A stretch of DNA of 64,000 nucleotides, taken from the NCBI GenBank assembly GCA_964622505.1, contig CAZUQJ010000001.1, positions 116,957-180,956 of the forward strand, in the 5' to 3' direction. This DNA is from an uncultured Candidatus Saccharibacteria bacterium (lineage in GTDB: Bacteria; Patescibacteriota; Minisyncoccia; Phycocordibacterales; UBA9973). Numbering within the stretch: position 1 is the stretch's first letter; every line of letters starts with the position of its first letter. The notes beneath the pieces were generated by a model. That model was not told the DNA's origin, ran no database searches, and saw only the letters and a list, made by a program, of their open reading frames with translations. Positions 2,401 to 61,552 of this stretch are shown here, piece after piece. The position numbers were made by a program, and so were the translations under genes.

Positions 2401-5400
2401 TTGTGGTATTATGATTCTATAAATATGCATGAATATATAAAAAACATAGCTCAAAAATTTGCTCGCAATGATGTAGCAAATGGACGCGAAATGATATACC
2501 GTACTGATTTTGAGAATCTTTTGAAAGATATTTTTCAGGCTGACGGCAAGGTGACTCAAATTAATCACGACTCTACTAGTGATAATGGTAACAAGCCTGA
2601 TTTTGTAATTTCAAAAAACGGTGTACCAATTCTATATATTGAAGCAAAAGATATTGGGGTAGATCTTAATAAGATCGAAAATAGTAATCAAATGCATCGT
2701 TATTTTGGCTATGGTAACCTAATTTTGACGGATTATGTAGAATTTCGTTTTTACAGAAACGGTGAAAGATATGGAAATCCTATTAGTATTGCTAGTATTG
2801 ATAAATTAAATCGTACAATATCCGAACTTTCGCAAAACTTTTCATTACTTTCTAAAACTATTACCGACTTTGCTTCTTCTTACAAAGAGCCTATTAAAAA
2901 AGGTTCTCATTTGGCAAGAATAATGGGAGGTAAGGCAATGCGTATTCGAGATAATGTAAAAGATATGCTCCTTAGTGATAATGAAAAATTTAGTGACTTA
3001 CAAAAAATTTTGAATGTTGTGAAAGAAAATTTAGTAGCTAGTTTAGATAACGAAACATTTGCAGACATGTATGCTCAGACGTTGGTTTATGGATTGTTTG
3101 CGGCAAGATATAATGATAAATCTCCAAATGATTTTTCTCGATCAGAGGCAAGAGATCTGGTGCCTAAAACAAATCCATTTTTGAGAGAATTTTTTAATCA
3201 CATTGCTGGACCATCTTTTCCAGATAGGCTTCGTTATATTGTAGATGAACTTTGCGAAGTTTTTACACATGCAAATGTACATACACTTATGCATGAATAT
3301 TTTAAAAAAGAAAATTTATTTGGTGAAGTATATGAAAGTCCTGACCCAGTAATCCATTTTTACGAAGATTTTCTAAAAGAATATGATATAAAAAAGAAAA
3401 TGGAAATGGGAGTATTTTATACTCCACGACCTGTTGTGAGGTTTATTGTGCGAGCAGTTGATGACATTTTAAAAAATGAATTTGGTCTTGCCAGAGGTCT
3501 TGCTGATACTACAAAAATCCAAATAGAAAAAAAGGAAATTGATCAAAAAACTGGTAAAGAAAAGAAAGTCCAAAAAGAATATCATAAAGTTCAAGTTCTT
3601 GATATTGCCACAGGTACAGGTACATTCCTTAATGAGGTCATCCATAATATTTACGCAAATTTTTCTGGACAAGAAGGCCGTTGGGTATCGTATGTTGAAA
3701 ATGATTTATTGCCAAGATTACATGGTTTTGAGTTAATGATGGCATCGTATACTATTGCTCATTTGAAATTAGGTATGACCTTGTATGACACAAAGGCTGG
3801 TGATCTGAAAACTCGTCTCGGGGTTTACCTTACAAATACACTGGACGCTCCCGTAGACTACGCTAATCAAGGTAGTTTGTTTGGATTAATGGATAGTATT
3901 GCCCAGGAGAGTAAAAATGCATCTAGAATAAAATCTGAATACCCGATAATGTGTGTTATTGGCAATCCTCCATATTCAGGCATTTCAATGAATAAGCAGT
4001 ACACAGAAAATAATGATTACAAAGTTGAAATCGGTGGTAAACAAAAATTACAGGAAAAGAAAAATTGGCTCGATGATGACTATGTTAAATTTATTCGATT
4101 TGCAGAAAGCTTGATTGAGAAAAATGGTGAGGGTATAGTAGGAATGATCACCGCCCATGGCTATATAGATAACCCAACATTTCGTGGTATGCGTTGGCAT
4201 TTACGGAACACTTTTGACAAAATATATGTTTTAGACTTGCATGGTAATAGTAATAAAAAAGAAACAAGCCTTGATGGCAGCAAAGACGAAAATATTTTTG
4301 ATATTAAAACAGGTGTATCAATAATTTTGGGTATTAAAAAGCAAGGTAATATAAAAGATAAAAAATTAGCTCAAATCTACAAATCAGATTTTTATGGCCT
4401 TCGTAAAGATAAATTTAAAAATATTGAAAATGCAACTATCGATAATTTAAACTGGACAGAGCTCCCAGAAAACAGTGATTTGTGGGTATTAGAAGGAAAA
4501 GGTAAATTAGAATATAAAAAAGGTTTTTCGATGACAGAAATATTTCCCAAAAATACTACTGGTATAGTCACTATGGGGGATAGTTTTATTATCGATGAAA
4601 ATAGGGATGTTTTAACAAAAAGAATTGATGAATTTTTGCAAAATGATATATCTGAGAATGACCTAAAGCATAAATATGATTTAGGTAAAAATTACGCAAA
4701 GTGGATTATTGATAATAAAAAGAAAATCGAAAATAATCATTTAAAAATAGTACCGCTGTCGTATAGGCCTTTTGACATAAGGTATACTTATTTTGATAAA
4801 AATTTGGTATGGAGAACTAGAGGTGATGTAATGTACGGTTTAGTAAAAAAAGAAAACCTAGGCTTAGTTTTTGCTAGGTCACAAAGGAATCCTGAATTTA
4901 ATGCCGTTTTTATTTGTAACTCTATAATAGAGACCAAGTGCGGTGAAGCAAGTACTCAATCAGCTGTAGCCCCTATTTATTTATACACAGAAAACGGAGA
5001 AAAAATTTCCAACTTAAATAAAGAAATTTGGAATAAGATTAATGATGTGGTGGGTAATACTACACCCGAAGATATTTTGGATTATATTTATGCAAGTCTG
5101 CATTCGCCAAAATACCGCGAAACTTACAAAGAATTTTTAAAAATTGATTTTCCTAGAGTTCAATACCCAACTGACAAAAAAGAATTTGAAAGACTGGTAA
5201 AGCTTGGCTCAAAATTACGAGAACTTCATTTAATGACTGATCCAGAATGTGAAAATTTAATTACAACTTATTCACAATCGGGTAGTGATGTAGTAGAAAA
5301 GGTAAAATATGAAAATGGTAATGTTTATATAAACGACGCGCAGTATTTCGGCAATGTACCAGAAATTTCATGGAGTTTCTATATAGGTGGCTACCAACCT

Positions 5401-5523
5401 GCTCAAAAATACCTTAAAGACAGAAAGGGTAGAAAACTAACCAATGAAGAAATTGAGCATTATCAAAAAATCATTAAGGTATTGTTTGAAACTGATAAAT
5501 TAATGAAGGAAATAGATAAGTAG
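2401..5523 (+). CDS. Type IIG (MmeI-family) restriction-modification enzyme: an N-terminal PD-(D/E)xK nuclease fused to a gamma-class N6-adenine DNA methyltransferase and a C-terminal specificity domain. The likely true start is the Met at 2425.
   Basis: N-terminus KPDFVIS...ILYIEAKD (PD-ExK) aligns with the MmeI N-terminal layout. VLDIATGTGTFL matches MTase motif I and CVIGNPPYSG motif IV (NPPY). The protein is 1040 aa. Confidence 0.8.
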   Translation: MWYYDSINMHEYIKNIAQKFARNDVANGREMIYRTDFENLLKDIFQADGKVTQINHDSTSDNGNKPDFVISKNGVPILYIEAKDIGVDLNKIENSNQMHRYFGYGNLILTDYVEFRFYRNGERYGNPISIASIDKLNRTISELSQNFSLLSKTITDFASSYKEPIKKGSHLARIMGGKAMRIRDNVKDMLLSDNEKFSDLQKILNVVKENLVASLDNETFADMYAQTLVYGLFAARYNDKSPNDFSRSEARDLVPKTNPFLREFFNHIAGPSFPDRLRYIVDELCEVFTHANVHTLMHEYFKKENLFGEVYESPDPVIHFYEDFLKEYDIKKKMEMGVFYTPRPVVRFIVRAVDDILKNEFGLARGLADTTKIQIEKKEIDQKTGKEKKVQKEYHKVQVLDIATGTGTFLNEVIHNIYANFSGQEGRWVSYVENDLLPRLHGFELMMASYTIAHLKLGMTLYDTKAGDLKTRLGVYLTNTLDAPVDYANQGSLFGLMDSIAQESKNASRIKSEYPIMCVIGNPPYSGISMNKQYTENNDYKVEIGGKQKLQEKKNWLDDDYVKFIRFAESLIEKNGEGIVGMITAHGYIDNPTFRGMRWHLRNTFDKIYVLDLHGNSNKKETSLDGSKDENIFDIKTGVSIILGIKKQGNIKDKKLAQIYKSDFYGLRKDKFKNIENATIDNLNWTELPENSDLWVLEGKGKLEYKKGFSMTEIFPKNTTGIVTMGDSFIIDENRDVLTKRIDEFLQNDISENDLKHKYDLGKNYAKWIIDNKKKIENNHLKIVPLSYRPFDIRYTYFDKNLVWRTRGDVMYGLVKKENLGLVFARSQRNPEFNAVFICNSIIETKCGEASTQSAVAPIYLYTENGEKISNLNKEIWNKINDVVGNTTPEDILDYIYASLHSPKYRETYKEFLKIDFPRVQYPTDKKEFERLVKLGSKLRELHLMTDPECENLITTYSQSGSDVVEKVKYENGNVYINDAQYFGNVPEISWSFYIGGYQPAQKYLKDRKGRKLTNEEIEHYQKIIKVLFETDKLMKEIDK

Positions 5524-5554: not shown

Positions 5555-6256
5555 ATGAATTCTGAAGAGCTAAAAATTAAAGAAAATGCAGAAGAATTCG
5601 CAAGGTCGAATAAAAAGAAAATTGCGAAAGACATAATTTCTTTGTATGAATCAGAGCCGAATCCTGTTTCTGTTTTCATGGCAGGATCTCCTGGTGCAGG
5701 CAAAACAGAATCTTCGAGGTGGCTTATTAAAAAACTTACAGGGAACGACGATTCTATTTTAAGAATTGACCCTGATGAGTTGAGGAAATATTTTGAAGAA
5801 TACAACGGAAAAAATTCTAATTTATTTCAAGGTGCAACATCTATACTTGCAGAAAAAATACACGATTTTGCAATTGATGGTAGTAAGAGTTTTGTTTTTG
5901 ATACAACTTTTTCTAAATTAAATAAAGCTCAACAAAATATTAAAAGATCACTAGACCACAAAAGATCAGTCCAAATAATATATGTTTATCAAGACCCTTT
6001 GCAAGCTTGGGAATTTGTGAAGGCACGTGAATTAAAAGATGGAAGAAATGTTCCAAAAGATTCATTTATCGAAGAGTACTTTAATGCTAGAGTTGTAGTA
6101 AATCAGATAAAAAAAGATTTTCCAGATATTACATTATATATACTTATAAAGAATATTGACGGGACAACCGAGAAATATAAAGAAAATGTTGACAGTATTG
6201 ACAAATATGTTAAAGAGAACTATACTATCGATAGTTTAAATAATGTGTTACAATAA
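5555..6256 (+). CDS. Zeta-toxin-like P-loop kinase (zeta toxin / AAA_33 family)
   Basis: Walker A FMAGSPGAGKTES, followed by ILRIDPDELR and then FVFDTT. This spacing mirrors zeta/PezT. Length 233 aa; a TGtAAAAT -10-like element sits about 9 nt upstream. Confidence 0.6.
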   Translation: MNSEELKIKENAEEFARSNKKKIAKDIISLYESEPNPVSVFMAGSPGAGKTESSRWLIKKLTGNDDSILRIDPDELRKYFEEYNGKNSNLFQGATSILAEKIHDFAIDGSKSFVFDTTFSKLNKAQQNIKRSLDHKRSVQIIYVYQDPLQAWEFVKARELKDGRNVPKDSFIEEYFNARVVVNQIKKDFPDITLYILIKNIDGTTEKYKENVDSIDKYVKENYTIDSLNNVLQ

Positions 6257-13167: not shown

Positions 13168-15393
13168 ATGAGACTTACTTGGGTAAAATATATTTTTTTA
13201 TTGACTTTTGCTTTATTATTTGTGAATAATAAAACTTTTGCTGCAACAACTATTTTTTCGGATAGTTTTAATAATGATTATGGTGAATTATCGACCCATA
13301 CCCCTACAACAGTGGGTACTAGTTGGACGCGATTGGTAAACAACGGTGTCGACTTATATGTTCAAAGCTATAACAATCACGTAACCGTTCAGTCAAACTC
13401 AAGTAACCTTGGTTCAATTTATGTAGCCAACGGTACATATCCAGACGCTGATTACGAAATTTCGGCCGACGCTTTGTTTGCAGCAGGTGATTCTAACTAT
13501 CCTCGATCATTAATATTACGCGCTCAAGATTCTAGTAATATGTATTTGCTTCGTAGTACGAATACGACAATGACAATTTATAAAAGAGTTTCTGGTACGT
13601 GGACATCACTTGGTTCAGGCGGTAGTGTTGGATTATCTGATAATACAGTCTCACCGTACTATATTGCAACACTAACATTTAGTGCTGTAGGTACAACTTT
13701 GACAGGTAAAGTAAATGGAGTCACCAAAGTAACTGTAACTGATAGTAGTATTACAAGTGCTGGTAAGGCAGGTATTGGCTTGGGGTACACAGCAGTTTCA
13801 ACTGATGATGGAGGGACAGGGGTAGGGATAGACACTGTTTTGGTTCAGACCGCTACTTCAGATTCAACAGCACCAACAATTACATCTGTTTCCTCTGATA
13901 AAACGAACGGTTCGTATACTGTTGGCGAAGTAATTGATATTGATGTTACTTTTAGTGAAGCCGTCACATCAACAGGTGATGTAACAGTAACATTAGAGAC
14001 AGGCGCAACTGATCGGACATGTACATTTACTGTATCAAACAGTAGTACGGGAACTTGTAATTATACTGTTCAATCTGGAGACACAACAAGTGATTTAACT
14101 GTAAATACAATATCGGGCACAATTGCTGATCAATCAAGTAATGCAATGACTGATTTTGCATCTACAACCAATTTAGCAGCCAATAAGGCTTTAGTGATTG
14201 ATACTACCGACCCAACAGTGCAATCACTTGCACCAGCAGATAATGAAACAAATTTCTCGCCTACATCAGTTTTTTTGATGACATTCAACCAGGCAGTTGA
14301 TGTTGAAACAGGGAATATTACGATTAAAAAAACATCTGATAATTCTACAGTTGAAACAATTAGTGTAAGTGGTGGATTGGTTACAGGCACTGGGACAACT
14401 GTTATTACCATTGACCCGTCTACAAATCTTTCAGATCTTACAGAATACTACATTTTAGTAGATGCTACCGCCTTTGATGATGCCGCAGGTAATAGCTATG
14501 CTGGTATTAGTTCAACCACGGCATGGAGTTTTACAACAGGAGATATAACAGCACCAACAATTACATCTGTTTCCTCCGATAAAACGAACGGTTCGTATAC
14601 TGTTGGCGAAGTAATTGATATCGACGTAACTTTTAGTGAAGCTGTAACTTCTACTGGTAACGTAACTGTTACGCTTGAAACTGGTACAACTGATCAAACA
14701 TGTACATTTACTGTTTCAAACAGCAGTACAGGAACCTGTAATTATACTGTTCAAGCCGGAGACACGACCAGTGATTTAACGGTCAACACTATTTCAGGCA
14801 CCATTGCTGATCAATCTAGTAATGCTATGTCTAACTTCGTACCAACTACAAACCTGGCTGCGAATAAAAATATTGTTATTGATACAACCGTACACATAGT
14901 GTCATCCACTAGCACTTCAGCAAGTGCACGAGTTCAAAATTTAATTAATATGGGGAAAATACAAGAAGCTCAACAAGTGGCAAAAGAATTTCCTAATTCA
15001 GTTCCAAAAAATTTATTAAATAATAAATTAATTTTAATACCTGTAAAACCAATAGAAAATATACAAAAAATAACCCCCAAAATTACTGAAATTAAAAAAG
15101 AAAATAATTTAGCAAGAGTAGAGCCAATTGTAGAAAATATTTTGCCAGAAGTTAACACAAATACAGAATCAAAAAAGAAAAAAATAATAAATAAAACTTT
15201 AAAAAGTTCAATGATTGACCCAGAAGTTAAAGCCTTACAAGAGTTCTTGCAAATTGACCCGCCGACAGGAAAGTTTGGAGCATTAACTTATAAAGCAGTA
15301 ATTAATTTTCAGAGAAAAAATAATTTAATACCTGATGGTATTGTAGGCCCAAAAACAAGAGCAGTAATAAATAAATTACTTTACGAAGCATAA
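13168..15393 (+). CDS. Secreted cell-surface protein with a signal peptide, two near-identical Ig-like modules flanking an SbsA/Big_5-like Ig domain, and a C-terminal peptidoglycan-binding (PG_binding_1) domain
   Basis: N-terminal hydrophobic signal; the roughly 115-aa repeat APTITSVSSDKTNGSYTVGEVIDIDVTFSEAV… occurs twice; C-terminal …LIPDGIVGPKTRAVINKLL matches the PG-binding motif. Confidence 0.65.
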   Translation: MRLTWVKYIFLLTFALLFVNNKTFAATTIFSDSFNNDYGELSTHTPTTVGTSWTRLVNNGVDLYVQSYNNHVTVQSNSSNLGSIYVANGTYPDADYEISADALFAAGDSNYPRSLILRAQDSSNMYLLRSTNTTMTIYKRVSGTWTSLGSGGSVGLSDNTVSPYYIATLTFSAVGTTLTGKVNGVTKVTVTDSSITSAGKAGIGLGYTAVSTDDGGTGVGIDTVLVQTATSDSTAPTITSVSSDKTNGSYTVGEVIDIDVTFSEAVTSTGDVTVTLETGATDRTCTFTVSNSSTGTCNYTVQSGDTTSDLTVNTISGTIADQSSNAMTDFASTTNLAANKALVIDTTDPTVQSLAPADNETNFSPTSVFLMTFNQAVDVETGNITIKKTSDNSTVETISVSGGLVTGTGTTVITIDPSTNLSDLTEYYILVDATAFDDAAGNSYAGISSTTAWSFTTGDITAPTITSVSSDKTNGSYTVGEVIDIDVTFSEAVTSTGNVTVTLETGTTDQTCTFTVSNSSTGTCNYTVQAGDTTSDLTVNTISGTIADQSSNAMSNFVPTTNLAANKNIVIDTTVHIVSSTSTSASARVQNLINMGKIQEAQQVAKEFPNSVPKNLLNNKLILIPVKPIENIQKITPKITEIKKENNLARVEPIVENILPEVNTNTESKKKKIINKTLKSSMIDPEVKALQEFLQIDPPTGKFGALTYKAVINFQRKNNLIPDGIVGPKTRAVINKLLYEA
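13870..14217 (+). repeat. Intragenic direct repeat, copy 1 (about 340 nt, roughly 90% identical to copy 2)
   Basis: gcaccaacaattacatctgtttcctc… recurs at 14551. Confidence 0.7.
14551..14889 (+). repeat. Intragenic direct repeat, copy 2
   Basis: In-frame duplication 681 nt downstream of copy 1. Confidence 0.7.
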
Positions 15394-22547: not shown

Positions 22548-23044
22548 TGAAGAAAACTTTAAAAGAATTACTTGGTGAAATCAGTGATAAGGAGCACGCC
22601 TGCATAGTGGTACTAGACGAGCTGACCGATGTCCACAATGTGGGTGCTATTATCCGTACCGCTGTGGCAAGTGGTGCCGACGGAGTGGTGGTAGGCAAGC
22701 ACAACCAAGCCCCGATCAATGACACTGTAATGCGCACAAGCGCCTATACAGCTGATCTGATCCCGATCATCGAGATGAATATCAACGATAGTTTACGAAT
22801 ACTCAAAGACAATGGCTTCTGGGTCCACGGACTTTTTATGCAAGGGGATAGTACATTGTGGCAAAGCGATTTGAAAGGCAAAGTTGCCATCGTAGTGGGT
22901 AGCGAAGGCGACGGTATACATGACCTAACTCGCAAGCTCTGCGACTTTGCATTAGCTATCCCAATGGACGAAAAAGTAGAATCCCTCAACGCATCAGTCT
23001 CGGCAAGTATTGCTCTCTACGAGCGCTTGAGGCAGATATCGTAG
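22547..23044 (+). CDS. Small SpoU/TrmH-family RNA methyltransferase (TrmH/TrmL-like)
   Basis: VVLDELTDVHNVGAIIRTA, VVGSEGDGI and LNASVSASIAL SPOUT motifs; 165 aa. Confidence 0.65.
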   Translation: MKKTLKELLGEISDKEHACIVVLDELTDVHNVGAIIRTAVASGADGVVVGKHNQAPINDTVMRTSAYTADLIPIIEMNINDSLRILKDNGFWVHGLFMQGDSTLWQSDLKGKVAIVVGSEGDGIHDLTRKLCDFALAIPMDEKVESLNASVSASIALYERLRQIS

Positions 23045-23071
23045 TGTTAAATTTTATGATATTATTGTTGT

Positions 23072-25618
23072 ATGTTTAATTTTAGACCTAAAATGGAGAG
23101 TAAAGTCTCTAGTGCTTTACCCACAGAAGAAAAGCCAGATATTCAGGAAACTAAACAAAAAGAAGAAAAATCACTAACTCCTGAAATTATAAAAAAAATA
23201 TATGAAAAAGGTCGTTTATATATCATGACCACGATTATTTCCCTTGGTATGTTTCAAGTAGATAAATCAGGTTCAGAGCAAAATTTTGATTATTTTATAT
23301 CGAAGTTCAAAAATATTCCAAAAGAAAAAAGCCATGAAGTTTATGATGATTTAAATAAAATATTGTCACCAGAAGAATTTTCAATATATTGTGAAAACGA
23401 TAACGATAGTTTAATTTCAAATTCAGTACTTGATAATAAATTCCGTGAAATCTTGGTGAAATTAAGTTCAAAGTTTATTTTTAAATCAGATGATCTGTTT
23501 ATAGATTTTTCTGAAAAAAAAGAGGAGGAACAAAACCAAAAACAATTATATAAAATAGATACTGAGGATTCTTGGAAAAAAATTGATGAAATCCTAAAAG
23601 AATTTCCTTCAGGTTACAAACCAGAGATTTCTTCAATTCCATATTCTCATATTGAATATTTAAATGATCCAGTATATTTTAAGGCCCTAAAACGTCTTGC
23701 CAGCATAAAAATGACGAGAGATGTTGCATATTGTAACAACAATAACATTAAAAAAATTGCAACGGATGATGATTTATTTATCATATTAGAGAAATTTAAT
23801 AGCTTGGGCCCTGAATTTAGTGCAGGCATTATTGATCGTTTTTTTGAATCTGGAACTAAACCTGAATATTTAGATGAAGAACAATGGCAAAAAAAATTAA
23901 ATTTCCGTAATGACTTTGAACACTTCTTGCAATCTAATCCAAATGCAAAGATTTTTGAATATGGTAAAGGCTCTAAATTTGAATCAAATGGAATTATTAA
24001 TTTAATGGATGATTCATCTGGAAGATACATACAATTTTTTGAAGACAAGAATAATCAAAAAAGTATTGAATTCCTACGTAGTATTGGATATGATTTCCAA
24101 TCAATGTATTTTTTAATAAGGTCAAATTATGAAAATATGGTCAACGAACCAGAATTTTTAGATGCACTGAATGAACTATCTGTAATCAATAGGAGGGGTG
24201 ATTCCTATAGCGTTTGGTTTCATTTATTATCTAAATATGATTCTTATTACAACTTAGACACTAAAGATGGTTTTGAGGATTTGGCTCATGATTTAAAAAG
24301 GGCTAAGTACAAGCTAGGTAATTCTTCTGTGGATTTTTATAAAGTCAGAGATAAATTAGAAGAAATTACAGACAAACATACTAAAAACAGCAATGAAATA
24401 ATTAAAGAAAATGTTTTTGAGCCTTTAGTTGCAGATATGGATACATCATACCAGCATTGGGATGAATTTTTAAAAGATCCAGCATTAGAAATTATAACAA
24501 AGTTAAAATATCAGAATAATATACCTAAATATTTGGATACTTTAGATTATTTTTCCAAAATAGATTGGATGATGCGCGTTGCAAGAAATATGTATATTGC
24601 TAATACACCAATTACTCCTGAAGATTTTGAAAAAACATTCTACGAAACAGTCAGCATTAGAATGGATAAGGAATTAATAGAGAAGTCATTATTTAAAAAT
24701 AGAAATGTTGCGTTCTTTGCTCACAACGAACGATACGGTGATGATAAAAAAGATAAATTAACTAAATATAAATTACAGAACAAAGGGAAAAACTGCTTTG
24801 GTAAGGCTGAGGCAATGGATGCAATTTCAAAACAACAACCAGACAATCTGAACATATTTCGGGCAAACAATACTTCGGAGTCATTAATTAATACAAAGAA
24901 GCTTTTTTTAGAATATATTATAAATAATTCTAATCTTACTGTCGTTGTTGATGCGCATGGTAACGAAAATGCTATTTATCTTACTAATGGTCTACCAAAA
25001 AGTCAAGAATTAAAAAATTCAGTTCCTACCGAAGGATCAGATTGTGTCACTTTTGAAGAGATTGCTAATGCAATTGAGGAACGATATGATAAAAATATAA
25101 AAGACGTACCTATTTTTATTATGACTTCTTGTTATAATCAGAATTTTATACGGAATCTTTGCGAAAAAATTATCGAAATAAATTCACAGAAGAAAAAGGA
25201 CATACAACTGCCTATTATTTCTGGAGATGCGGAATATGGACAGTATGCTTATTCTACTGAAAGCGAGTTTGGTAATGATTTTTTTGATATGATTTTAAAG
25301 AATAAATCTAATTCAAGGATTAAAGATATCATTCAAATTGAAAATGGAACTCTAACAACTAATATTTCACTGTTTGTGCCATTTACTAAAGAAAGTAAGG
25401 ATATTAACAGCAAAAAAATAAAACAAAAAATCTTCTACCAAATTACACAACACGGAGGCACACCGTTAAACAAAACACTCGCATTACAATACGCAGAGGG
25501 ATTACTAAGTAATACCATAAATGATAAAACAGCATCTTACTGGGAATATACCAATAAAGACCTAGCTCATGAAATAAGGAAAACAATCGAAGATTATAAT
25601 ATTGAGCTCGTAAGCTGA
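23072..25618 (+). CDS. Large AT-rich orphan protein (848 aa) with a possible C-terminal caspase/CHAT-like protease core
   Basis: No recognisable N-terminal domain. The C-terminal region has LTVVVDAHGNENAIYLTNG, then about 60 aa later PIFIMTSCYNQ. This is the hydrophobic-strand-HG … hydrophobic-strand-C arrangement of the caspase-hemoglobinase fold. Confidence 0.5.
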   Translation: MFNFRPKMESKVSSALPTEEKPDIQETKQKEEKSLTPEIIKKIYEKGRLYIMTTIISLGMFQVDKSGSEQNFDYFISKFKNIPKEKSHEVYDDLNKILSPEEFSIYCENDNDSLISNSVLDNKFREILVKLSSKFIFKSDDLFIDFSEKKEEEQNQKQLYKIDTEDSWKKIDEILKEFPSGYKPEISSIPYSHIEYLNDPVYFKALKRLASIKMTRDVAYCNNNNIKKIATDDDLFIILEKFNSLGPEFSAGIIDRFFESGTKPEYLDEEQWQKKLNFRNDFEHFLQSNPNAKIFEYGKGSKFESNGIINLMDDSSGRYIQFFEDKNNQKSIEFLRSIGYDFQSMYFLIRSNYENMVNEPEFLDALNELSVINRRGDSYSVWFHLLSKYDSYYNLDTKDGFEDLAHDLKRAKYKLGNSSVDFYKVRDKLEEITDKHTKNSNEIIKENVFEPLVADMDTSYQHWDEFLKDPALEIITKLKYQNNIPKYLDTLDYFSKIDWMMRVARNMYIANTPITPEDFEKTFYETVSIRMDKELIEKSLFKNRNVAFFAHNERYGDDKKDKLTKYKLQNKGKNCFGKAEAMDAISKQQPDNLNIFRANNTSESLINTKKLFLEYIINNSNLTVVVDAHGNENAIYLTNGLPKSQELKNSVPTEGSDCVTFEEIANAIEERYDKNIKDVPIFIMTSCYNQNFIRNLCEKIIEINSQKKKDIQLPIISGDAEYGQYAYSTESEFGNDFFDMILKNKSNSRIKDIIQIENGTLTTNISLFVPFTKESKDINSKKIKQKIFYQITQHGGTPLNKTLALQYAEGLLSNTINDKTASYWEYTNKDLAHEIRKTIEDYNIELVS

Positions 25619-25660
25619 TTTGTGGTATACTAGCTATTATTATTTATTTTTATCTTCATT

Positions 25661-43759: not shown

Positions 43760-45364
43760 TTAAGAGAATTTTTCTTTTCTCTTTAGAAATCTTTCCAAGG
43801 TAGTTTTTTCAAATATATCAAACCAAGGTTGTTTCTCTGCATGTTCTAGTACAAATTTTGGTAGTTTTTTCCCAATATTTGTAATGTACAAAAATGACGT
43901 CATGTCTTTATCCATAATCTTTTCCCCGCTTTGCGCTATAGACAAAAGGAATCTTGAGTAACCCTCTGCAGTAATACCTTTTTTGTTTCCTGCAAGTTTT
44001 ATTATGCTCAAAATTATACGGGAATTTCCATCTAACCTGAAGCTCTCTTGGTTAAGGGTTAAGGACCTACCTGTTTTATAATCTGTAGCAATCCTAGTGT
44101 AACTATTGATGTCTTTTAAGATGAGGTAATTTGAGGAGTCTGTCAATAATTTAGCAAAATCACTTGAAATAGTATTTTGATTTGCAAAAGCAAGAGCTTT
44201 TTTGTAATATTCAGATTTGCCGGCGGCTGAAAAAACTTTTTCCAGACCTATTTCGTCAAAAAATTGATGCAACTTGTTAGCGAATACCATTCTTTGTGTC
44301 TGAGCTTCATCTAAAAACAATAGTAAGCTTGGGTTTACAAAAAATATTTTTGCAAAGATATCACATTCTGATTTTGCTAAGAGCTTATTTACTGCAGTAA
44401 ACAATTTAACCGGCAGCTCCTCTTCAAGAATACTTTTGTTAATTGTTCTGTTGTAACTACCCAATAACTTATCAAGTGCAGATATTTTTGTTTTACTAAC
44501 AGGGTCTAATTCTAACCTACGACTTAAATAGATTGTAGGAAAGCTTTTACTTAAATCAGGAAGTATGGCTTTTACATAGGATATATTCGTAAATGAGATG
44601 TTGCTTAAATCAGTTTTGGAAAAAAGGTTCTGAAAATTTATCTCCAGTTCCTTTATCCATTTAGGATTGTTTTCAACCATAGACTCAAATTTTTTGATAT
44701 CCTCAAGACTAAACGTGTTTTTTAGTTCACCTAACATAGAACTTACAATCAAAGTGGTAAAAATTTTATCTTCCCTTAAAACTAATTTTTGGGAATCCTT
44801 TTTATCCTCGTCGGATCTTACTGACATAAACTTTTCTAACAGTTTTTTGTCTCCGGATTCGTAGAGTATCTTGGTAATTTTTATCCAACTTTGAATACCA
44901 TTTACTTCATCTTGCAAGGCTTTGAATTTAGAATCAGGCGTCTCCATTACCGCCTTAAAACCTTCAGGGTAATTCCATAGACTTTTTATCTTATTTTCAG
45001 TCCTGGAAATGTCTAAAATTTGTTGCAGTTTTGATGGCGGTGTAATTCCACTTAAAAATGTTTTAAGTTCCGGTAACCCAGAATGAGCACGCATTATTTC
45101 TTTGCAGGCCTTTTCATTTTTAATAGAAGTAAAATCAATGTTCTTTTCCAAGCAACATTCAAGTGTCATTTTTACCAAATAGAAAACTCTTTCTTTTGGG
45201 AAGGTAACTTTCGTTTGCATTTTCAGTGCCCTTTCTGAGGTAATTTTTTGAAACAGTTTGTTTGCATGTGCTGCATGTTTCAAATATAAATTATTTGAGC
45301 TAGGTTCATCTTGACCAAGAGTGGCAAGAGAAAAAGGGTTTGTTTCGTCAATAAATGTTCCCAT
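43760..45364 (-). CDS. Hypothetical protein (534 aa), AT-rich, predicted all-alpha, no recognisable domain
   Basis: Long intact ORF, second gene of a 2-gene operon. Confidence 0.55.
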   Translation of the reverse strand: MGTFIDETNPFSLATLGQDEPSSNNLYLKHAAHANKLFQKITSERALKMQTKVTFPKERVFYLVKMTLECCLEKNIDFTSIKNEKACKEIMRAHSGLPELKTFLSGITPPSKLQQILDISRTENKIKSLWNYPEGFKAVMETPDSKFKALQDEVNGIQSWIKITKILYESGDKKLLEKFMSVRSDEDKKDSQKLVLREDKIFTTLIVSSMLGELKNTFSLEDIKKFESMVENNPKWIKELEINFQNLFSKTDLSNISFTNISYVKAILPDLSKSFPTIYLSRRLELDPVSKTKISALDKLLGSYNRTINKSILEEELPVKLFTAVNKLLAKSECDIFAKIFFVNPSLLLFLDEAQTQRMVFANKLHQFFDEIGLEKVFSAAGKSEYYKKALAFANQNTISSDFAKLLTDSSNYLILKDINSYTRIATDYKTGRSLTLNQESFRLDGNSRIILSIIKLAGNKKGITAEGYSRFLLSIAQSGEKIMDKDMTSFLYITNIGKKLPKFVLEHAEKQPWFDIFEKTTLERFLKRKEKFS

Positions 45365-45372
45365 AATTTTGA

Positions 45373-46254
45373 CTAATTAAATAATTTTCCTAAAACATCC
45401 TCATTGTTAGTCAGATCATCGTCACTTTCCATGAATTCTTTGTGGGACTCATATTGTTTCCCTTGGAAAAGCATGTTCCTGTAAAATTCAAGATCTGGAT
45501 TTTGCAATTCATCTACCAGTTCTTTAAATTTAACTGGTGCATATTCTTGCAAAGTGTTCAAGAAGGGATATTCAATAGGCAGAGGGATATTTGATCTTAA
45601 AAGGTTAAAAAGTTTTAAATTTTCAACCTTCTCATCTTCAAATTCATAATAATTAGTATCTATTTCAAAAATACTAATTAAATACAAAGTTTTGATGCTG
45701 ATCTCAGTAAACATCTCTCTTTTAACATTTACCGGTATTGATTCAATAAATCCGGGTAAATGATTCAGAAACAAATATGCAGACTTTTCATGATCATCGG
45801 TATCATTAAAGTTGTTCATTTTTTTATAATGATACATATAGTACTTTAACAATTCTCCAGGGTTAACTGAGAGTAGATTGTACACACCGAGATTAAGAAC
45901 CTCACCGTTTGTTATCAACACTTCACTTTTAAACATGTGATCTAACTGGCCGAATATGATGTCGGCTGTCTCTTTGTCACTGTTTTCAATGGCAACACTA
46001 ATACTTTCGATAAGATCGGAAGAGTTAATATTTAAGTTGAGAGCCATCTCATAGTGGTTGATTGATCGCCTTCCATTAAACTTTTTAATTTTTGGTAAAA
46101 GTTCAATTAAGAATTGCGCAGATTCTAATTCCAATAACTTAATTCCTTTAAATGGGTTTATGGCAAGAGTGTTATTTCCAGTTGCCGCCCCGTTGTCTTT
46201 TTTGCTTGTCATGACGTTATTTTTTTTACAATGAATTTTGGTATATATTAACAT
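45373..46254 (-). CDS. Hypothetical protein (293 aa; alternative start at 46212), AT-rich, no recognisable domain
   Basis: Intact ORF 8 nt upstream of the 534-aa ORF. Confidence 0.5.
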   Translation of the reverse strand: MLIYTKIHCKKNNVMTSKKDNGAATGNNTLAINPFKGIKLLELESAQFLIELLPKIKKFNGRRSINHYEMALNLNINSSDLIESISVAIENSDKETADIIFGQLDHMFKSEVLITNGEVLNLGVYNLLSVNPGELLKYYMYHYKKMNNFNDTDDHEKSAYLFLNHLPGFIESIPVNVKREMFTEISIKTLYLISIFEIDTNYYEFEDEKVENLKLFNLLRSNIPLPIEYPFLNTLQEYAPVKFKELVDELQNPDLEFYRNMLFQGKQYESHKEFMESDDDLTNNEDVLGKLFN

Positions 46255-58972: not shown

Positions 58973-61552
58973 TTATCTTTTAACTTCACCATAGCCCCAA
59001 TTCGACATTAATAAAGCGAAATCGTATTTATTTACTAATCCATCCACAGTCAAGTCGGCCTTTTCATTCGTTACTTTCAATCCCCAAGGCACCATCATCA
59101 AGGCAAAGTCGTATTTGTTTACTTTCCCATCACAGTTGATGTCACCAAGTATAGTACATTTTGGAGTTGGATCTCCTCCTCCTCCACCACCCCCGCCGCC
59201 TCCACCGGATGATTCTTGCTTTGAGATTGTAATGATGTTACTTACTGCACTCATGTTGCCAAATTTATCTATTTGCACCACACCAAATTTAAATGGAATG
59301 AAAGCTTCTCCTTCGGAAACGAGCGGGATTGTCGTAGTGAAAGTTCCTTCCAATCTACAAGGTGTATCTTGAGTAAAATTACTTCCTATTTTATTTAGAA
59401 TACTATCTGGTTCTGTGCCACCTAATATTTCATATGTGAAATTAAGGTGATCTGATTCTATATCACAAGTTCCAGAAACAGCTAATGTGGAACTACCGGT
59501 GTAAGGTCCCGATGTAGGACTTGTAATTATAGGTGCATCTGGAGCTATAGAGTCAATGACAAAAACAAAAGTTTTGTCTCCAAAAATAATCTCATTACCA
59601 GCTTTGTCTTTACTGATGATCATTACTCGATAACTACTATCTTTAAGATTAAGTTCAGATAAATCAAAGTGTATAGGCTCGTAAATATCAAATTTTTTAG
59701 AGTATCCTATTGTTCGGTAGTCAGTTATATTACTAGTATCTTGATGCATATCCCAAAAGATAATTTCTGATTCAAGAAGATTATCATCAATCGCATGACT
59801 AACAATAACGATATTTCCATCACTAGCTTTTTCATACGTCATGAACTCAAAGTTAACATCTGCTGTGGCTCCATTATGGAAGTAAGTATATTCTAGTTTT
59901 GGTGCTTGAGTGTCGATAATTACAGTAATATCAGGAGATTGGGAATAATTTTCATCAATATTTGCCTCAGCATAAATTTGATACACCCCATCAGGTAATG
60001 AATTAGTAGCATTCTCCACAGTCCAGTTTCCAAACTCATCTGAAGTTGTTGTGCCTATTAATGTTGAAGTTATTCCACAAGGTAATCCGGGTGTAGTAGT
60101 AATGCATGGAACCATCATTGGCACCACAAACACTTGAACTTCAGTATTGGGATAAGTTGTTCCAGAAAAAGAAGGAGTATTATCTTTTGTGATAAAATCA
60201 GTGTCTGAAATTCCTGTATCTTGTGACATTTCTGTAATAGATACTAATGGTTTAATAGAAACATAAATTTCTTTAGTTAAACTGATGCCTTTTTCATAAT
60301 CTCCACATTGCATAGCGATCATGAGAGTATCTGTATATGTGGGCGTTGTTGTCTCCCATAAGTATAGACCAGCAATAACTTTTTCAGACCCAGAAGTTAC
60401 TTTTTGTCCGGTAGTTAATTCAACACCATCCGTATTATGTACAAAATTACCATAAAAATTACAGAATTTTAAATTACTTTCCCAGGTTACATCCATAATA
60501 GATTTGTAATCAACAGGGCTTGGCATGGTTGAACCATTGATTTTAAAATTCATATAGTACTCATCTGTACTTTGAATTGTAAGCTTGAAATCTAGAGTAG
60601 GATTTACACACATGTCGTTTATTACTTCACAAGCAACAAACACATACTCTCCCGGAGTAAGAGCGCCTGTTGTTGTATTAAATGGAGCCTCTATCTGCCA
60701 TTTTCCATCTTCATCAGATGTAGTAGATCCGTAAATAGCTGTAAAAGTACTCACACCGTCTTTGATTACTTCATGATCAAACTTTTCATATATTTGCACT
60801 TTAGTATTTGGAGTAAAGGTACCGTAGAAACCTGGAGTAGTATCATTTGTTGATTGTGCGCCTGTAATTTGGTCTAGAGCACTAAAATTAGTTAATAGAG
60901 ATATATATTTTGGTTGAGAGCTTGGAAATACCCGAAAAACACTTGGAGTAAAAGCGGTAAAATCTTCGGTTTCGTCAGTACTCTTCCACGTTACTTTTAA
61001 ATAGTAATGTCCTGGAAGTACAAAATTTTCTGGAGAAATATTTGGATAAACTTGTATGATATTAATTTGTCCATTAGAAGAAGTAGGATCATTTAGACAT
61101 GACAGAGTACCATCCTCATTTAAGGATTCTGTTGTAGCTTCTTGTACTACAGAAATACACGCAGTACCGGTCTTTGTGGAGTTGATTGTTACCTGAGGGT
61201 TAAAGTTACTACCTAGAGTAAATGTTTCGCCTCCAGTAGGATATCTAATATCTATTGTCGGTGGTACAACGATTACTGGTGTAGCTGAAATCTGAATTTC
61301 ATTTGAAATTTCTATCTGAGGTTCGATTTCTATTTCTGTAACTATAGGTTCTTCTAGTGTAATTTCATTAGTAGAAAGTTCTACTTCCGGTTGAATTTCT
61401 TCTGGAACTAGCTCAACCTCTAATTGTGTCTCAGTTTGTATTTGAGTTTCTGTTTCGAGATTTAGAGTCACTTCCTCAGCCCATACGTTTATGGCCGGAG
61501 CAAACATGGTTGTCACTAGCATCACTATCAGTACTAGGTTAATTTTTTTCAT
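58973..61552 (-). CDS. Large secreted protein (859 aa) with an acidic N-terminal repeat region, a beta-rich body, a G13 linker and a C-terminal dockerin (two Ca-binding repeat segments)
   Basis: Signal peptide; C-terminal GGGGGGGGGGGGG, then GDINCDGKVNKYDFALMM and DLTVDGLVNKYDFALLMSNWG dockerin repeats. Confidence 0.7.
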   Translation of the reverse strand: MKKINLVLIVMLVTTMFAPAINVWAEEVTLNLETETQIQTETQLEVELVPEEIQPEVELSTNEITLEEPIVTEIEIEPQIEISNEIQISATPVIVVPPTIDIRYPTGGETFTLGSNFNPQVTINSTKTGTACISVVQEATTESLNEDGTLSCLNDPTSSNGQINIIQVYPNISPENFVLPGHYYLKVTWKSTDETEDFTAFTPSVFRVFPSSQPKYISLLTNFSALDQITGAQSTNDTTPGFYGTFTPNTKVQIYEKFDHEVIKDGVSTFTAIYGSTTSDEDGKWQIEAPFNTTTGALTPGEYVFVACEVINDMCVNPTLDFKLTIQSTDEYYMNFKINGSTMPSPVDYKSIMDVTWESNLKFCNFYGNFVHNTDGVELTTGQKVTSGSEKVIAGLYLWETTTPTYTDTLMIAMQCGDYEKGISLTKEIYVSIKPLVSITEMSQDTGISDTDFITKDNTPSFSGTTYPNTEVQVFVVPMMVPCITTTPGLPCGITSTLIGTTTSDEFGNWTVENATNSLPDGVYQIYAEANIDENYSQSPDITVIIDTQAPKLEYTYFHNGATADVNFEFMTYEKASDGNIVIVSHAIDDNLLESEIIFWDMHQDTSNITDYRTIGYSKKFDIYEPIHFDLSELNLKDSSYRVMIISKDKAGNEIIFGDKTFVFVIDSIAPDAPIITSPTSGPYTGSSTLAVSGTCDIESDHLNFTYEILGGTEPDSILNKIGSNFTQDTPCRLEGTFTTTIPLVSEGEAFIPFKFGVVQIDKFGNMSAVSNIITISKQESSGGGGGGGGGGGDPTPKCTILGDINCDGKVNKYDFALMMVPWGLKVTNEKADLTVDGLVNKYDFALLMSNWGYGEVKR

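What the first reader, a model, noticed from the sequence alone, without database searches (positions are those of the whole stretch)
23072..25618. AT-rich 848-aa orphan protein with a C-terminal caspase/CHAT-like His…Cys core
The gene is markedly more AT-rich than its flanks and is rich in Lys, Asn, Asp, Glu and Phe, with no recognisable N-terminal domain. Near residues 630-710 the segment LTVVVDAHGNENAIYLTNG is followed about 60 aa later by PIFIMTSCYNQ. This reproduces the strand-HG / strand-C catalytic dyad layout of caspase-hemoglobinase-fold proteases (CHAT, metacaspase, C11/C13). Large CHAT-type proteases are recurrent effectors in prokaryotic conflict systems, so a stand-alone one here, with a long unknown sensor-like N-terminus, is a candidate novel defence or effector protein.
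Basis: inference. Interest (0 to 1): 0.7.

Follow-up and report, generated by a model that had tools for sequence, protein, structure and literature searches.

The report
New caspase-fold protease family in CPR bacteria
This AT-rich gene encodes a large protein whose C-terminal third is predicted with high confidence to be a caspase/legumain-type cysteine protease from a previously uncatalogued family found mostly in ultra-small CPR bacteria, and it sits as swappable cargo at a variable spot between housekeeping genes.

Summary
ORF 23072-25618 (+) encodes 848 aa and has the lowest GC of 62 ORFs tabulated in the window (0.289 vs about 0.40 in the flanks). The two motifs are at residues 622-640 (DAHG, H629) and 680-690 (SC, C687).

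It reaches no curated family threshold (C13, C14, CHAT, C11, C25; NCBIfam; PADLOC), so it is a new clan CD family and not a CHAT protein.

N-terminal regions are highly variable (50 sequence groups). No partner gene is conserved across ten contexts.

In syntenic relatives the SpoU-DoxX slot is empty, or holds an unrelated gene. The protease gene is under purifying selection (ω about 0.2) but diverges far faster than its flanks.

The biological role (defence, effector or processing) remains inferred. Interest is moderate.

The parts
23072..25618 (+). Complete ORF, 848 aa plus TGA stop; single-copy accessory gene
   Evidence: Purifying selection, omega 0.16-0.21. One copy per locus.
23072..23215 (+). 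Residues 1-48: polar K/E-rich leader ending in the conserved basic motif Y-x-K-G-R
   Evidence: Alignment of 20 N-termini of the window-type subfamily. pLDDT below 30 in the full-length model.
23216..23254 (+). Residues 49-61 (LYIMTTIISLGMF): positionally conserved short hydrophobic helix of unresolved meaning. It is not a classical signal peptide.
   Evidence: No match to signal-peptide models.
23255..24463 (+). Residues 62-464: all-helical N-terminal region, lineage-specific, with no recognisable domain. It is shared by only about 22 of 119 family representatives.
   Evidence: (helical; pLDDT 70-88 only for about residues 230-370).
24464..24688 (+). Residues 465-539: conserved helical pre-domain (DPAL motif 469-472; helix with W499 and near-invariant R505 in 'ARNMY'). 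It is modelled with high confidence in the same model as the protease domain.
   Evidence: conserved core starts at about profile position 450; R26=R505 conserved in >=90%; helices 14-30 and 37-51, pLDDT 87-95.
24689..25471 (+). Residues 540-800: clan CD (caspase-hemoglobinase fold) cysteine peptidase domain. Element order: beta1 545-550, beta2 592-596, beta3 622-627, small L3 sheet, alpha3, beta4 681-684, alpha4, beta5 715-718, beta hairpin 766-790.
24956..24961 (+). Codons for H629-G630, the predicted catalytic His (loop L3) and its following Gly
25130..25132 (+). Codon for C687, the predicted catalytic nucleophile (loop L4), invariant
24728..24730 (+). Codon for E553 (just after beta1, L1/alpha1 position), conserved in >=90%; candidate S1-pocket residue
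   Evidence: The positional analogy to caspase Arg87 and MALT1 Asp365 comes from PMC4357240 and is an inference.
25232..25243 (+). Codons for E721-Y-G-Q724 (loop L5, 'SEYGQ' motif), with E and Q conserved in >=90%; candidate S1-pocket and gating residues
   Evidence: The analogy to MALT1 Glu500/Gln494 comes from PMC4357240 and is an inference.
25472..25615 (+). Residues 801-848: C-terminal helices, conserved only among the closer relatives
23042..23071 (+). Left junction of the variable slot: SpoU stop codon plus a 27-bp spacer before the cargo ATG
25619..25660 (+). Right junction: conserved DoxX promoter-like element (TGGTATACT...ATTATTATTTA). It is retained in empty, protease-bearing and PG-binding-cargo versions of the locus.

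Best explanation
The gene encodes a multidomain protein whose conserved C-terminal module (residues about 465-800) is a cysteine endopeptidase of the caspase-hemoglobinase fold (MEROPS clan CD). H629 on loop L3 and C687 on loop L4 form the catalytic dyad.

The protein belongs to a family with no match in any curated library searched here (about 200 clusters at 50% identity). Most sampled members are in CPR/Patescibacteria genomes. The family is closest in fold to legumain/GPI8 (C13) and to metacaspases/paracaspases (C14B), and it is not a CHAT protein.

Inferred mechanism:
- The thiolate of C687, assisted by H629, cleaves target proteins.
- The P1 residue is probably basic, because the loops that build the S1 pocket in clan CD carry near-invariant acidic or amide residues here (E553 after beta1; E721 and Q724 on L5), as in the Arg-specific MALT1.
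- The conserved two-helix pre-domain (with near-invariant R505) and the long, lineage-variable helical N-terminus most likely gate activity or choose the trigger or substrate. N-terminal segments or prodomains do this in metacaspases and gingipains.

The gene is accessory, not housekeeping. It is single-gene cargo in a variable slot between SpoU and DoxX, probably exchanged by homologous recombination through the conserved flanks. I therefore favour an intracellular, trigger-activated role in genetic conflict (phage defence, abortive infection or toxin-like) over a housekeeping processing role.

Shown: the ORF, its conservation, the predicted fold, the sequence placement of the dyad, accessory status and purifying selection.
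Inferred: catalytic activity, P1 preference, regulation by the N-terminus and the biological role.
For: Fold:
- The domain model has pLDDT 91.0 and pTM 0.83 from a 142-sequence alignment.
- Foldseek against the PDB agrees. In the viral library the only high-probability hits are giant-virus C14 caspase-domain proteins and a metacaspase.

Dyad:
- Strand 622-627 is followed by H629, and strand 681-684 is followed by C687, with a small beta-sheet between beta3 and alpha3 as in caspases (criteria from PMC4357240).
- hhalign of the family profile against verified human legumain aligns TVVVDAHG with FIYFTDHG and IFIMTSC with VFYIEAC (E 0.0038).
- C687 is invariant. H629, G630, E553, E721 and Q724 are conserved in >=90% of 142 sequences.
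- Weak sequence echoes are all clan CD: Peptidase_C13 in 5/75 members (best E 0.012), Peptidase_C25 in 2/75 (2e-4), and the PADLOC 'caspase' model in 1/75 (3.6e-4).

Functional gene: omega is 0.16-0.21.

Accessory status:
- In fully syntenic relatives (flank proteins 81-92% identical) the SpoU-DoxX slot is empty (L020/L021) or carries an unrelated 358-aa PG_binding_1 gene (L017-19).
- Homologs P0002 and P0003 sit at a different locus.
- GC is 1-11 points below the flanks in all 8 loci tabulated, 6 distinct genes.
- The protease is 56% identical between the window and P0004, while 25 of the 27 visible SpoU-tail residues are identical.
- For P0002 vs P0003, dS is 1.04 against 0.30 for the adjacent gene.

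Variable N-termini: 50 BLAST components among 119.

Mostly soluble: there is no classical signal peptide or TM helix.

Other points: natural competence is documented in a CPR lineage (PMC10633639). The other clearly AT-rich genes in the window are a Type ISP R-M enzyme and a zeta toxin.
Against: - No biochemical evidence exists; activity, P1 preference and regulation are inferred.
- The full-length model is poor (pLDDT 54), so the N-terminal fold is unknown.
- The hhalign match is weak on its own (probability 8.7%, E 0.0038, one-sequence template).
- The conflict role lacks direct support. There is no match to any PADLOC system. No partner gene is conserved across 10 contexts, all with housekeeping neighbours. 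No viral contigs were found with the patterns used. Omega gives no sign of gene-wide positive selection.
- The alternative cargo at the same slot is a secreted wall-binding protein, not a defence gene.
- The dS contrast rests on one neighbour gene of 192 codons.
Confidence: 0.62

Rival explanations
1. It is an exported or surface-tethered effector protease. The polar leader, the Y-x-K-G-R motif and the short hydrophobic helix (residues 49-61) act as an unconventional signal peptide or type II anchor. The protease then works outside the CPR cell, on the host cell surface or on host proteins, to support an episymbiotic lifestyle.
For: - The leader, basic motif and 12-18 aa hydrophobic stretch are positionally conserved in about 20 otherwise divergent representatives.
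- The alternative cargo at the same slot is a secreted PG-binding protein.
- CPR bacteria are largely host-dependent epibionts, and delivery of effectors by their T4SS has been speculated (PMC11665869).
- The gene diverges fast and is replaced at the locus.
Against: - The hydrophobic segment starts at residue 49 and is weak (KD15 1.63). Genuinely secreted proteins of the same window have segments of 2.1-2.6 starting at residues 4-12.
- No match to the KxYKxGKxW or other signal-peptide models.
- The segment is absent from the other N-terminal types of the family (median KD13 0.88-1.0), so export is not a family property.
- No secretion-system genes are adjacent.
Confidence: 0.17
2. It is a housekeeping-type processing enzyme or transamidase related to C13 (legumain/GPI8/asparaginyl ligases). 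It would mature or ligate specific CPR proteins and would not act in conflict.
For: - Peptidase_C13 is the Pfam family hit by the most members (5/75).
- All neighbours are housekeeping genes, and one homolog sits inside the S10 ribosomal operon.
- The gene is under purifying selection.
Against: - The gene is absent from closely related syntenic genomes, and the slot is occupied by unrelated cargo in others. That argues against a core function.
- It has a patchy distribution of about 200 clusters, hypervariable N-termini and fast divergence.
- It fails the C13 HMM threshold.
- The conserved candidate S1-loop residues (E553, E721, Q724) differ from legumain's S1 set of Arg44, His45, Ser216 and Asp231 (PMC4357240).
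- It has no signal peptide, whereas C13 enzymes act in secretory compartments.
Confidence: 0.12
3. It is a catalytically dead caspase-fold scaffold (as in Raptor or c-FLIP), or a spurious or decaying AT-rich ORF.
For: - The extreme AT-richness could suggest a non-functional or foreign remnant.
Against: - C687 is invariant, and H629 and G630 are conserved in at least 96% of non-gap rows across about 150 divergent representatives, together with candidate pocket residues. Pseudo-proteases lose these residues.
- Omega of 0.16-0.21 and intact full-length orthologs show selection on the protein.
Confidence: 0.04

Closest known systems
Legumain / GPI8 / plant asparaginyl endopeptidase-ligases (MEROPS family C13, Pfam PF01650)
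   Same: - The same order of secondary-structure elements, with His-Gly after beta3 and Cys after beta4.
- The profile alignment superposes D-x-H-G and the hydrophobic-strand-x-C motifs.
- Weak sub-threshold C13 HMM hits in 5/75 members.
   Different: - About 11% identity, and no HMM hit at threshold.
- No signal peptide and no LSAM-type C-terminal prodomain.
- The conserved candidate pocket residues are E553, E721 and Q724, where legumain's S1 set is Arg44, His45, Ser216 and Asp231.
- It carries a 460-aa helical N-terminus and a conserved helical pre-domain.
- It is found in bacteria with reduced genomes, as accessory cargo.
Metacaspases, paracaspase MALT1 and bacterial orthocaspases (family C14B; e.g. 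AtMC9 8a53, MALT1 3v4o, GSU0716 3bij)
   Same: - Acidic residues at the L1/alpha1 and L5 positions plus a Gln on L5, as in MALT1 (Asp365, Glu500, Gln494; PMC4357240). This suggests basic P1 specificity.
- Fusion to variable non-catalytic regions is typical of bacterial orthocaspases (from my own knowledge).
   Different: - No PF00656 hit in the window protein or among the recurrent hits of 75 members.
- No evidence for the metacaspase extra strands or Ca2+ site.
- The N-terminal regions match none of the usual partner domains (WD40, TPR and the like).
CHAT-domain proteases of prokaryotic conflict systems (SAVED-CHAT 8tl0, Craspase TPR-CHAT 7y83/7zoq, DdvA 8rot; Pfam PF12770)
   Same: - The same clan CD fold and dyad.
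- A large multidomain protein with a non-catalytic N-terminus.
- Accessory, patchy distribution.
   Different: - No CHAT HMM hit.
- No associated CRISPR, CBASS, SAVED or gasdermin genes.
- No PADLOC system match.
CPR-C4, the one experimentally characterised CPR-specific cysteine protease (PMC9108980)
   Same: A cysteine protease family discovered in CPR metagenomes with no sequence-detectable relatives.
   Different: - CPR-C4 has a vasohibin-like fold with a Cys-His-Leu(carbonyl) triad and is highly conserved within CPR.
- The present protein has a caspase fold with His-then-Cys order and is patchy and accessory.

Membership tests
MEROPS clan CD (caspase-hemoglobinase fold peptidases) | Alpha/beta/alpha sandwich built on a central, mostly parallel six-stranded sheet with five main helices (PMC4357240) | tested here: met
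   [not shown]
MEROPS clan CD (caspase-hemoglobinase fold peptidases) | Catalytic His on the loop after beta3 and catalytic Cys on the loop after beta4, with His before Cys in the sequence | tested here: met
   Strand 622-627 is followed by H629-G630, and strand 681-684 by C687. hhalign equates these with legumain His148-Gly149 and Cys189 (E 0.0038).
MEROPS clan CD (caspase-hemoglobinase fold peptidases) | Dyad residues conserved across the family | tested here: met
   C687 in 153/153, H629 in 149/151 and G630 in 145/151 non-gap rows. C is invariant and H/G are >=90% in the 142-sequence MAFFT alignment.
MEROPS clan CD (caspase-hemoglobinase fold peptidases) | His and Cys side chains juxtaposed at an open active-site cleft | not testable with these tools
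   Model coordinates are not exposed. This is only implied by the 2.8 Å superposition on legumain.
MEROPS clan CD (caspase-hemoglobinase fold peptidases) | Peptide-bond hydrolysis or transpeptidation that depends on the Cys | not testable with these tools
   Requires biochemistry.
Family C13 (legumain/GPI8; Pfam PF01650) | Sequence reaches the family HMM threshold | tested here: not met
   The window protein has no hit even at E<=10. Only 5 of 75 family members give sub-threshold hits, best E 0.012.
Family C13 (legumain/GPI8; Pfam PF01650) | Zwitterionic S1 pocket (Arg44, His45, Ser216, Asp231) giving Asn/Asp specificity | tested here: inconclusive
   The family conserves E553 (after beta1) and E721/Q724 (L5) instead. 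The residue-level alignment covers only residues 623-700, so pocket equivalences are positional inferences.
Family C13 (legumain/GPI8; Pfam PF01650) | Secretory-pathway targeting signal | tested here: not met
   No classical signal peptide or TM helix by hydropathy. No dedicated predictor was available.
Family C14 (caspases, metacaspases, paracaspases; Pfam PF00656) | Sequence reaches the family HMM threshold | tested here: not met
   [not shown]
CHAT domain proteases (Pfam PF12770) | Sequence reaches the CHAT HMM threshold; association with TPR, SAVED or CRISPR partners | tested here: not met
   [not shown]
Known anti-phage defence systems (PADLOC-DB v2) | Protein matches a system component model, and the other components are adjacent | tested here: not met
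   The window protein has only marginal hits (E about 0.008) to SAVED_HNH/endonuclease models at residues 742-841, and these do not recur in the family (1/75). The neighbours are housekeeping genes.
Polymorphic toxin / effector-immunity modules | Conserved N-terminal trafficking domain, variable C-terminal toxin, adjacent immunity gene | tested here: not met
   The architecture is the reverse: variable N-terminus and conserved C-terminal protease. No conserved downstream gene in 10 contexts.
KxYKxGKxW-type / long Gram-positive signal peptides | Match to the curated signal-peptide HMMs (Pfam, NCBIfam) | tested here: not met
   Eight N-terminal fragments were scanned at E<=10 and none matched. 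The resemblance was recalled from memory and is only a lead.

The most novel reading that the evidence does not exclude
This would be the founding member of a new clan CD peptidase family, found mostly in CPR/Patescibacteria, that works as a single-gene, sensor-fused 'bacterial caspase'. The hypervariable helical N-terminus would recognise a phage or host cue and release the conserved pre-domain (possibly R505 occupying an acidic S1 pocket). That would unleash Arg/Lys-specific proteolysis, which either aborts infection or attacks the host cell. The gene would be shuffled between strains by natural transformation into scar-free hot spots such as SpoU-DoxX. This would be the first caspase-type conflict system described for ultra-small episymbiotic bacteria.
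Probability: 0.3. Interest if true: 0.75.

Novelty: new variant of a known kind. Interest (0 to 1): 0.48.

Why it matters
Clan CD proteases (caspases, metacaspases, legumain, separase, CHAT) act as switches in cell death, immunity and protein maturation. Their bacterial members are increasingly recognised as effectors of anti-phage systems.

CPR/Patescibacteria make up a very large share of uncultivated bacterial diversity, yet almost none of their lineage-specific proteins have assigned functions. This work defines a protein family of about 200 clusters, matched by none of the Pfam, NCBIfam, PADLOC or PHROGs models. It comes with a confident structural assignment, named catalytic residues and a testable specificity prediction.

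The work also identifies a scar-free variable slot in an otherwise syntenic CPR genome region. If the protease proves to be a defence or host-interaction factor, it would give a tractable entry point into conflict biology in episymbionts, since Saccharibacteria are now genetically manipulable. If it turns out to be an ordinary processing protease, it would still justify a new MEROPS family.

Tried and rejected
- Direct family assignment failed. Pfam, NCBIfam, PHROGs, PADLOC and PDB sequence searches with the single protein and with 4- and 142-sequence profiles gave nothing significant.
- The full-length AlphaFold model built from 4 sequences was too poor to use (pLDDT 54), and no structure-prediction jobs remained for the N-terminus alone.
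- The marginal PADLOC SAVED_HNH/endonuclease hits at residues 742-841 were rejected as chance or composition, because they do not recur in 75 relatives.
- The KxYKxGKxW signal-peptide idea was rejected as a membership claim, and export is not a family-wide property.
- Pattern-based locus retrieval failed with diverse alignments. With a closer alignment it returned no viral contigs and only two metagenome loci.
- The second word-indexed homolog search, with the profile, was limited by the candidate cap (12 hits).
- Cluster look-ups gave almost no names for family members.
- An assignment to Saccharibacteria was dropped. One homolog contig is labelled Saccharibacteria, but proteins clustering at >=90% identity with window proteins are labelled Patescibacteria group, Nomurabacteria or Paceibacterota.
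- CPR-C4 was considered as a prior description and rejected because it has a different fold.
- Literature searches for caspase-type proteases in CPR bacteria found nothing relevant.
Full report
OBSERVATION. The ORF is real: 23072-25618 on the + strand, ATG to TGA, 848 aa. It is the most AT-rich of the 62 ORFs I tabulated in the window (GC 0.289, GC3 0.219; window mean 0.371). It is flanked by genes of GC 0.40-0.48 upstream and 0.35-0.42 downstream. No domain is recognised anywhere in the protein by Pfam, NCBIfam, PHROGs or PADLOC, or by sequence search of the PDB. The first ATG is the likely start, because MFNF[RK]PK is conserved in the orthologs.

CONTEXT AND ORGANISM. The neighbours are housekeeping genes on the same strand: a GTPase, an AI-2E transporter, two SpoU methyltransferases, a P-type ATPase and CNNM upstream; then DoxX, a TP_methylase, DUF4015, an S41 protease and L9 downstream. 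Intergenic gaps are only 27 and 42 bp. Window proteins fall in >=90% identity clusters whose named members are labelled Patescibacteria group, Candidatus Nomurabacteria or Candidatus Paceibacterota. One homolog contig is labelled Candidatus Saccharibacteria. The host is therefore a CPR/Patescibacteria bacterium, and I do not commit to a phylum.

THE FAMILY. The word-indexed search found only the protein itself and three relatives at about 53-56% identity, in which DAHG and SC are invariant. The exhaustive profile search over 1.84 billion representatives found 198 proteins at E<=1e-3 (118 at <=1e-10). The shared region is profile positions about 450-775, that is the C-terminal module. Aligning about 150 of these to the module shows C687 in 153/153, H629 in 149/151 and G630 in 145/151 non-gap rows. 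R544, N545, E553, T623, R694, P714, E721 and Q724 are also strongly conserved. An independent MAFFT alignment of 142 sequences gives C687 invariant, with R505, E553, F576, T623, H629, G630, R671, P714, E721, Q724, P770 and Q790 at >=90%. The family consensus is RN[VI]xxxAHxE ... TFxFDGHG ... IxIxxSC[YF][NS]xxFIR ... PIxxGxSE[YF]GQ.

The order of elements in the model matches the clan CD description in PMC4357240. The order is beta1 545-550, beta2 592-596, helix, beta3 622-627, H629; two short strands; helix 661-673; beta4 681-684, C687; helix 689-707; beta5 715-718; helices; then a beta hairpin at 766-790. That description has His on L3, Cys on L4, and a small sheet between beta3 and alpha3.

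ARCHITECTURE. The conserved module begins about 75 residues before beta1. It includes a DPAL motif (469-472) and two helices (493-509 and 516-530) that are confidently modelled together with the protease domain. These helices carry a near-invariant Arg (R505, 'ARNMY'). Upstream of this the family is very heterogeneous. Among 119 complete N-terminal regions (median 384 aa) there are 50 BLAST components. The window's type is shared by 22 representatives and another type by 39; the rest are pairs or singletons. No Pfam domain recurs in them.

Within the window-type subfamily there is a positionally conserved pattern: a polar leader of 35-45 aa, a Y-x-K-G-R motif, then a 12-18 aa hydrophobic stretch (window residues 49-61). 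This is not a classical signal peptide. Secreted proteins of the same window have much stronger h-regions starting at residues 4-12. Curated signal-peptide models do not match. The feature is absent from the other N-terminal types. I record it as unexplained and treat the family as mainly soluble and intracellular.

ACCESSORY STATUS. Ten distinct genomic contexts were examined (plus L005). All have housekeeping neighbours and share no partner gene. One homolog sits between L2 and S19 inside the S10 ribosomal operon. One distant member is in a diderm bacterium, with Omp85, porins and DcaP nearby. There is one copy per locus.

The decisive result came from anchoring on the upstream SpoU gene. 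Relatives with the same gene order on both sides, and flank proteins 81-92% identical to the window's, differ at exactly this slot. SpoU is followed directly by DoxX in L020/L021. L017-L019 carry an unrelated 358-aa secreted PG_binding_1 protein there. The window and P0004's contig carry the protease. In all versions the cargo lies between the SpoU stop codon and a conserved promoter-like element upstream of DoxX. There are no repeats and no mobility genes. P0002 and P0003 occupy a different locus.

The gene's GC is below its flanks in all eight loci tabulated, which represent six distinct genes, by 1-11 points; the two smallest differences come from short contigs with under 1 kb of flank. It diverges much faster than its neighbours. 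Identity is 72% against 92% for the adjacent hydrolase in the P0002/P0003 pair. Identity is 56% between the window and P0004, while 25 of the 27 visible SpoU-tail residues are identical. By Nei-Gojobori estimates omega is 0.16-0.21, so the protein is under purifying selection. Synonymous divergence is also about 3.5-fold that of the neighbour (dS 1.04 vs 0.30). This points to allele replacement by recombination and not merely to relaxed constraint, though it rests on one neighbour gene. Natural competence with homologous recombination is documented for Saccharibacteria (PMC10633639), which offers a plausible scar-free route. The other conspicuously AT-rich genes of the window include a Type ISP restriction-modification enzyme and a zeta toxin, so low GC marks accessory genes in this genome.

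MECHANISM. Shown so far: a selected ORF, a confidently predicted clan CD fold, and an invariant His-Gly/Cys pair at the canonical sequence positions. The rest is inferred.

C687 and H629 probably catalyse peptide-bond cleavage. In clan CD the S1 pocket is built from L1/alpha1, L4 and L5: caspase-7 uses Arg87, Gln184 and Arg233; MALT1 uses Asp365, Asp462 and Glu500 with a gating Gln494; legumain uses Arg44, His45, Ser216 and Asp231 (PMC4357240). This family keeps E553 just after beta1, and E721 and Q724 on L5. I therefore predict an acidic pocket and basic P1 specificity, which the review describes as the commonest preference in the clan.

The conserved pre-domain with R505 and the variable N-terminus are the obvious candidates for gating and for trigger or substrate recognition. 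Precedents are the N-terminal segment that crosses the metacaspase active site and the Arg-inserting gingipain prodomain.

The gene is dispensable, exchanged, fused to hypervariable N-termini and mostly lacks export signals. I therefore favour a trigger-activated intracellular role in genetic conflict (about 0.4 of the probability mass), over an exported effector (about 0.17) or a C13-like processing or transamidase enzyme (about 0.12). None of these is demonstrated.

VERDICT. 'CHAT-like' holds only at clan level. 'Orphan' should be corrected to a small family with no match in the curated libraries searched. The defence or effector role is plausible but unproven. This is a new family within a well-known clan, so it is a new variant of a known kind. 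Interest is moderate: the fold itself is unsurprising in bacteria, but the CPR setting, the hot-spot cargo behaviour and a clean set of testable predictions make it a worthwhile lead.

Noticed in passing
window 23042-23071 and 25619-25660; loci L017 6502-7711, L020 6502-6542: The SpoU-DoxX junction is a scar-free variable slot in otherwise syntenic CPR genomes. It is empty in L020/L021, carries a 358-aa secreted PG_binding_1 protein in L017-19, and carries the protease in the window and in L005. A conserved promoter-like element upstream of DoxX is retained in all versions.
   Followed up: yes
window 2401-5523 and 5555-6256 (also 24-737): An AT-rich accessory cluster at the start of the window. 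It holds a Type ISP restriction-modification enzyme (HSDR_N, N6_Mtase, Type_ISP_C; 1040 aa), immediately followed by a zeta toxin (233 aa). An AT-rich ORF upstream has a weak protein-kinase-like hit. No antitoxin was looked for.
   Followed up: partly
window 13168-15393: A 741-aa protein with a classical signal peptide, a Big_5 Ig-like domain and a C-terminal PG_binding_1 domain. Its 3' end is AT-rich (GC 0.28 around 15000). It is probably a surface or cell-wall-interacting protein of the CPR cell.
   Followed up: partly
window 58973-61552 (- strand): An 859-aa secreted protein with a Big_13 Ig-like domain and a C-terminal type I dockerin domain (GC3 0.23). A dockerin is unexpected in a reduced CPR genome, and no cohesin partner was searched for.
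   Followed up: no
window 43760-45364 and 45373-46254 (- strand): Two adjacent AT-rich ORFs (534 and 293 aa, GC 0.32-0.33) with no Pfam hits and no signal peptide. They may be further accessory genes of unknown function.
   Followed up: no
L008 7081-17390: In the contig carrying distant homolog P0149, the S10 ribosomal-protein operon is interrupted between L2 and S19 by about 9 kb. The insert carries the protease homolog plus PD40/Tricorn-like, acyltransferase and LNT_N genes. That is an unusual disruption of a normally invariant operon.
   Followed up: no
L014 8001-11009: Distant family member P0137 (1002 aa, E 2e-9) lies in a diderm bacterium, next to patatin-Omp85, DcaP and Porin_O_P genes. 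The protease module is therefore not strictly confined to CPR lineages.
   Followed up: partly
window 23072-23254 and N-termini of P0002-P0032: A conserved pattern of polar leader, Y-x-K-G-R motif and short hydrophobic helix at the N-terminus of the window-type subfamily. It recalls long Gram-positive signal peptides but matches no curated signal model. Its meaning is unresolved.
   Followed up: yes
window 1-64000: Rfam at gathering thresholds found no RNA family, not even a tRNA, anywhere in the 64-kb window.
   Followed up: no
window 61659-62678 (- strand): This ORF falls in a >=90% identity cluster of 183 sequences annotated as deoxyhypusine synthase family protein in Nomurabacteria and Paceibacterota MAGs. 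That enzyme is better known from archaea and eukaryotes.
   Followed up: no
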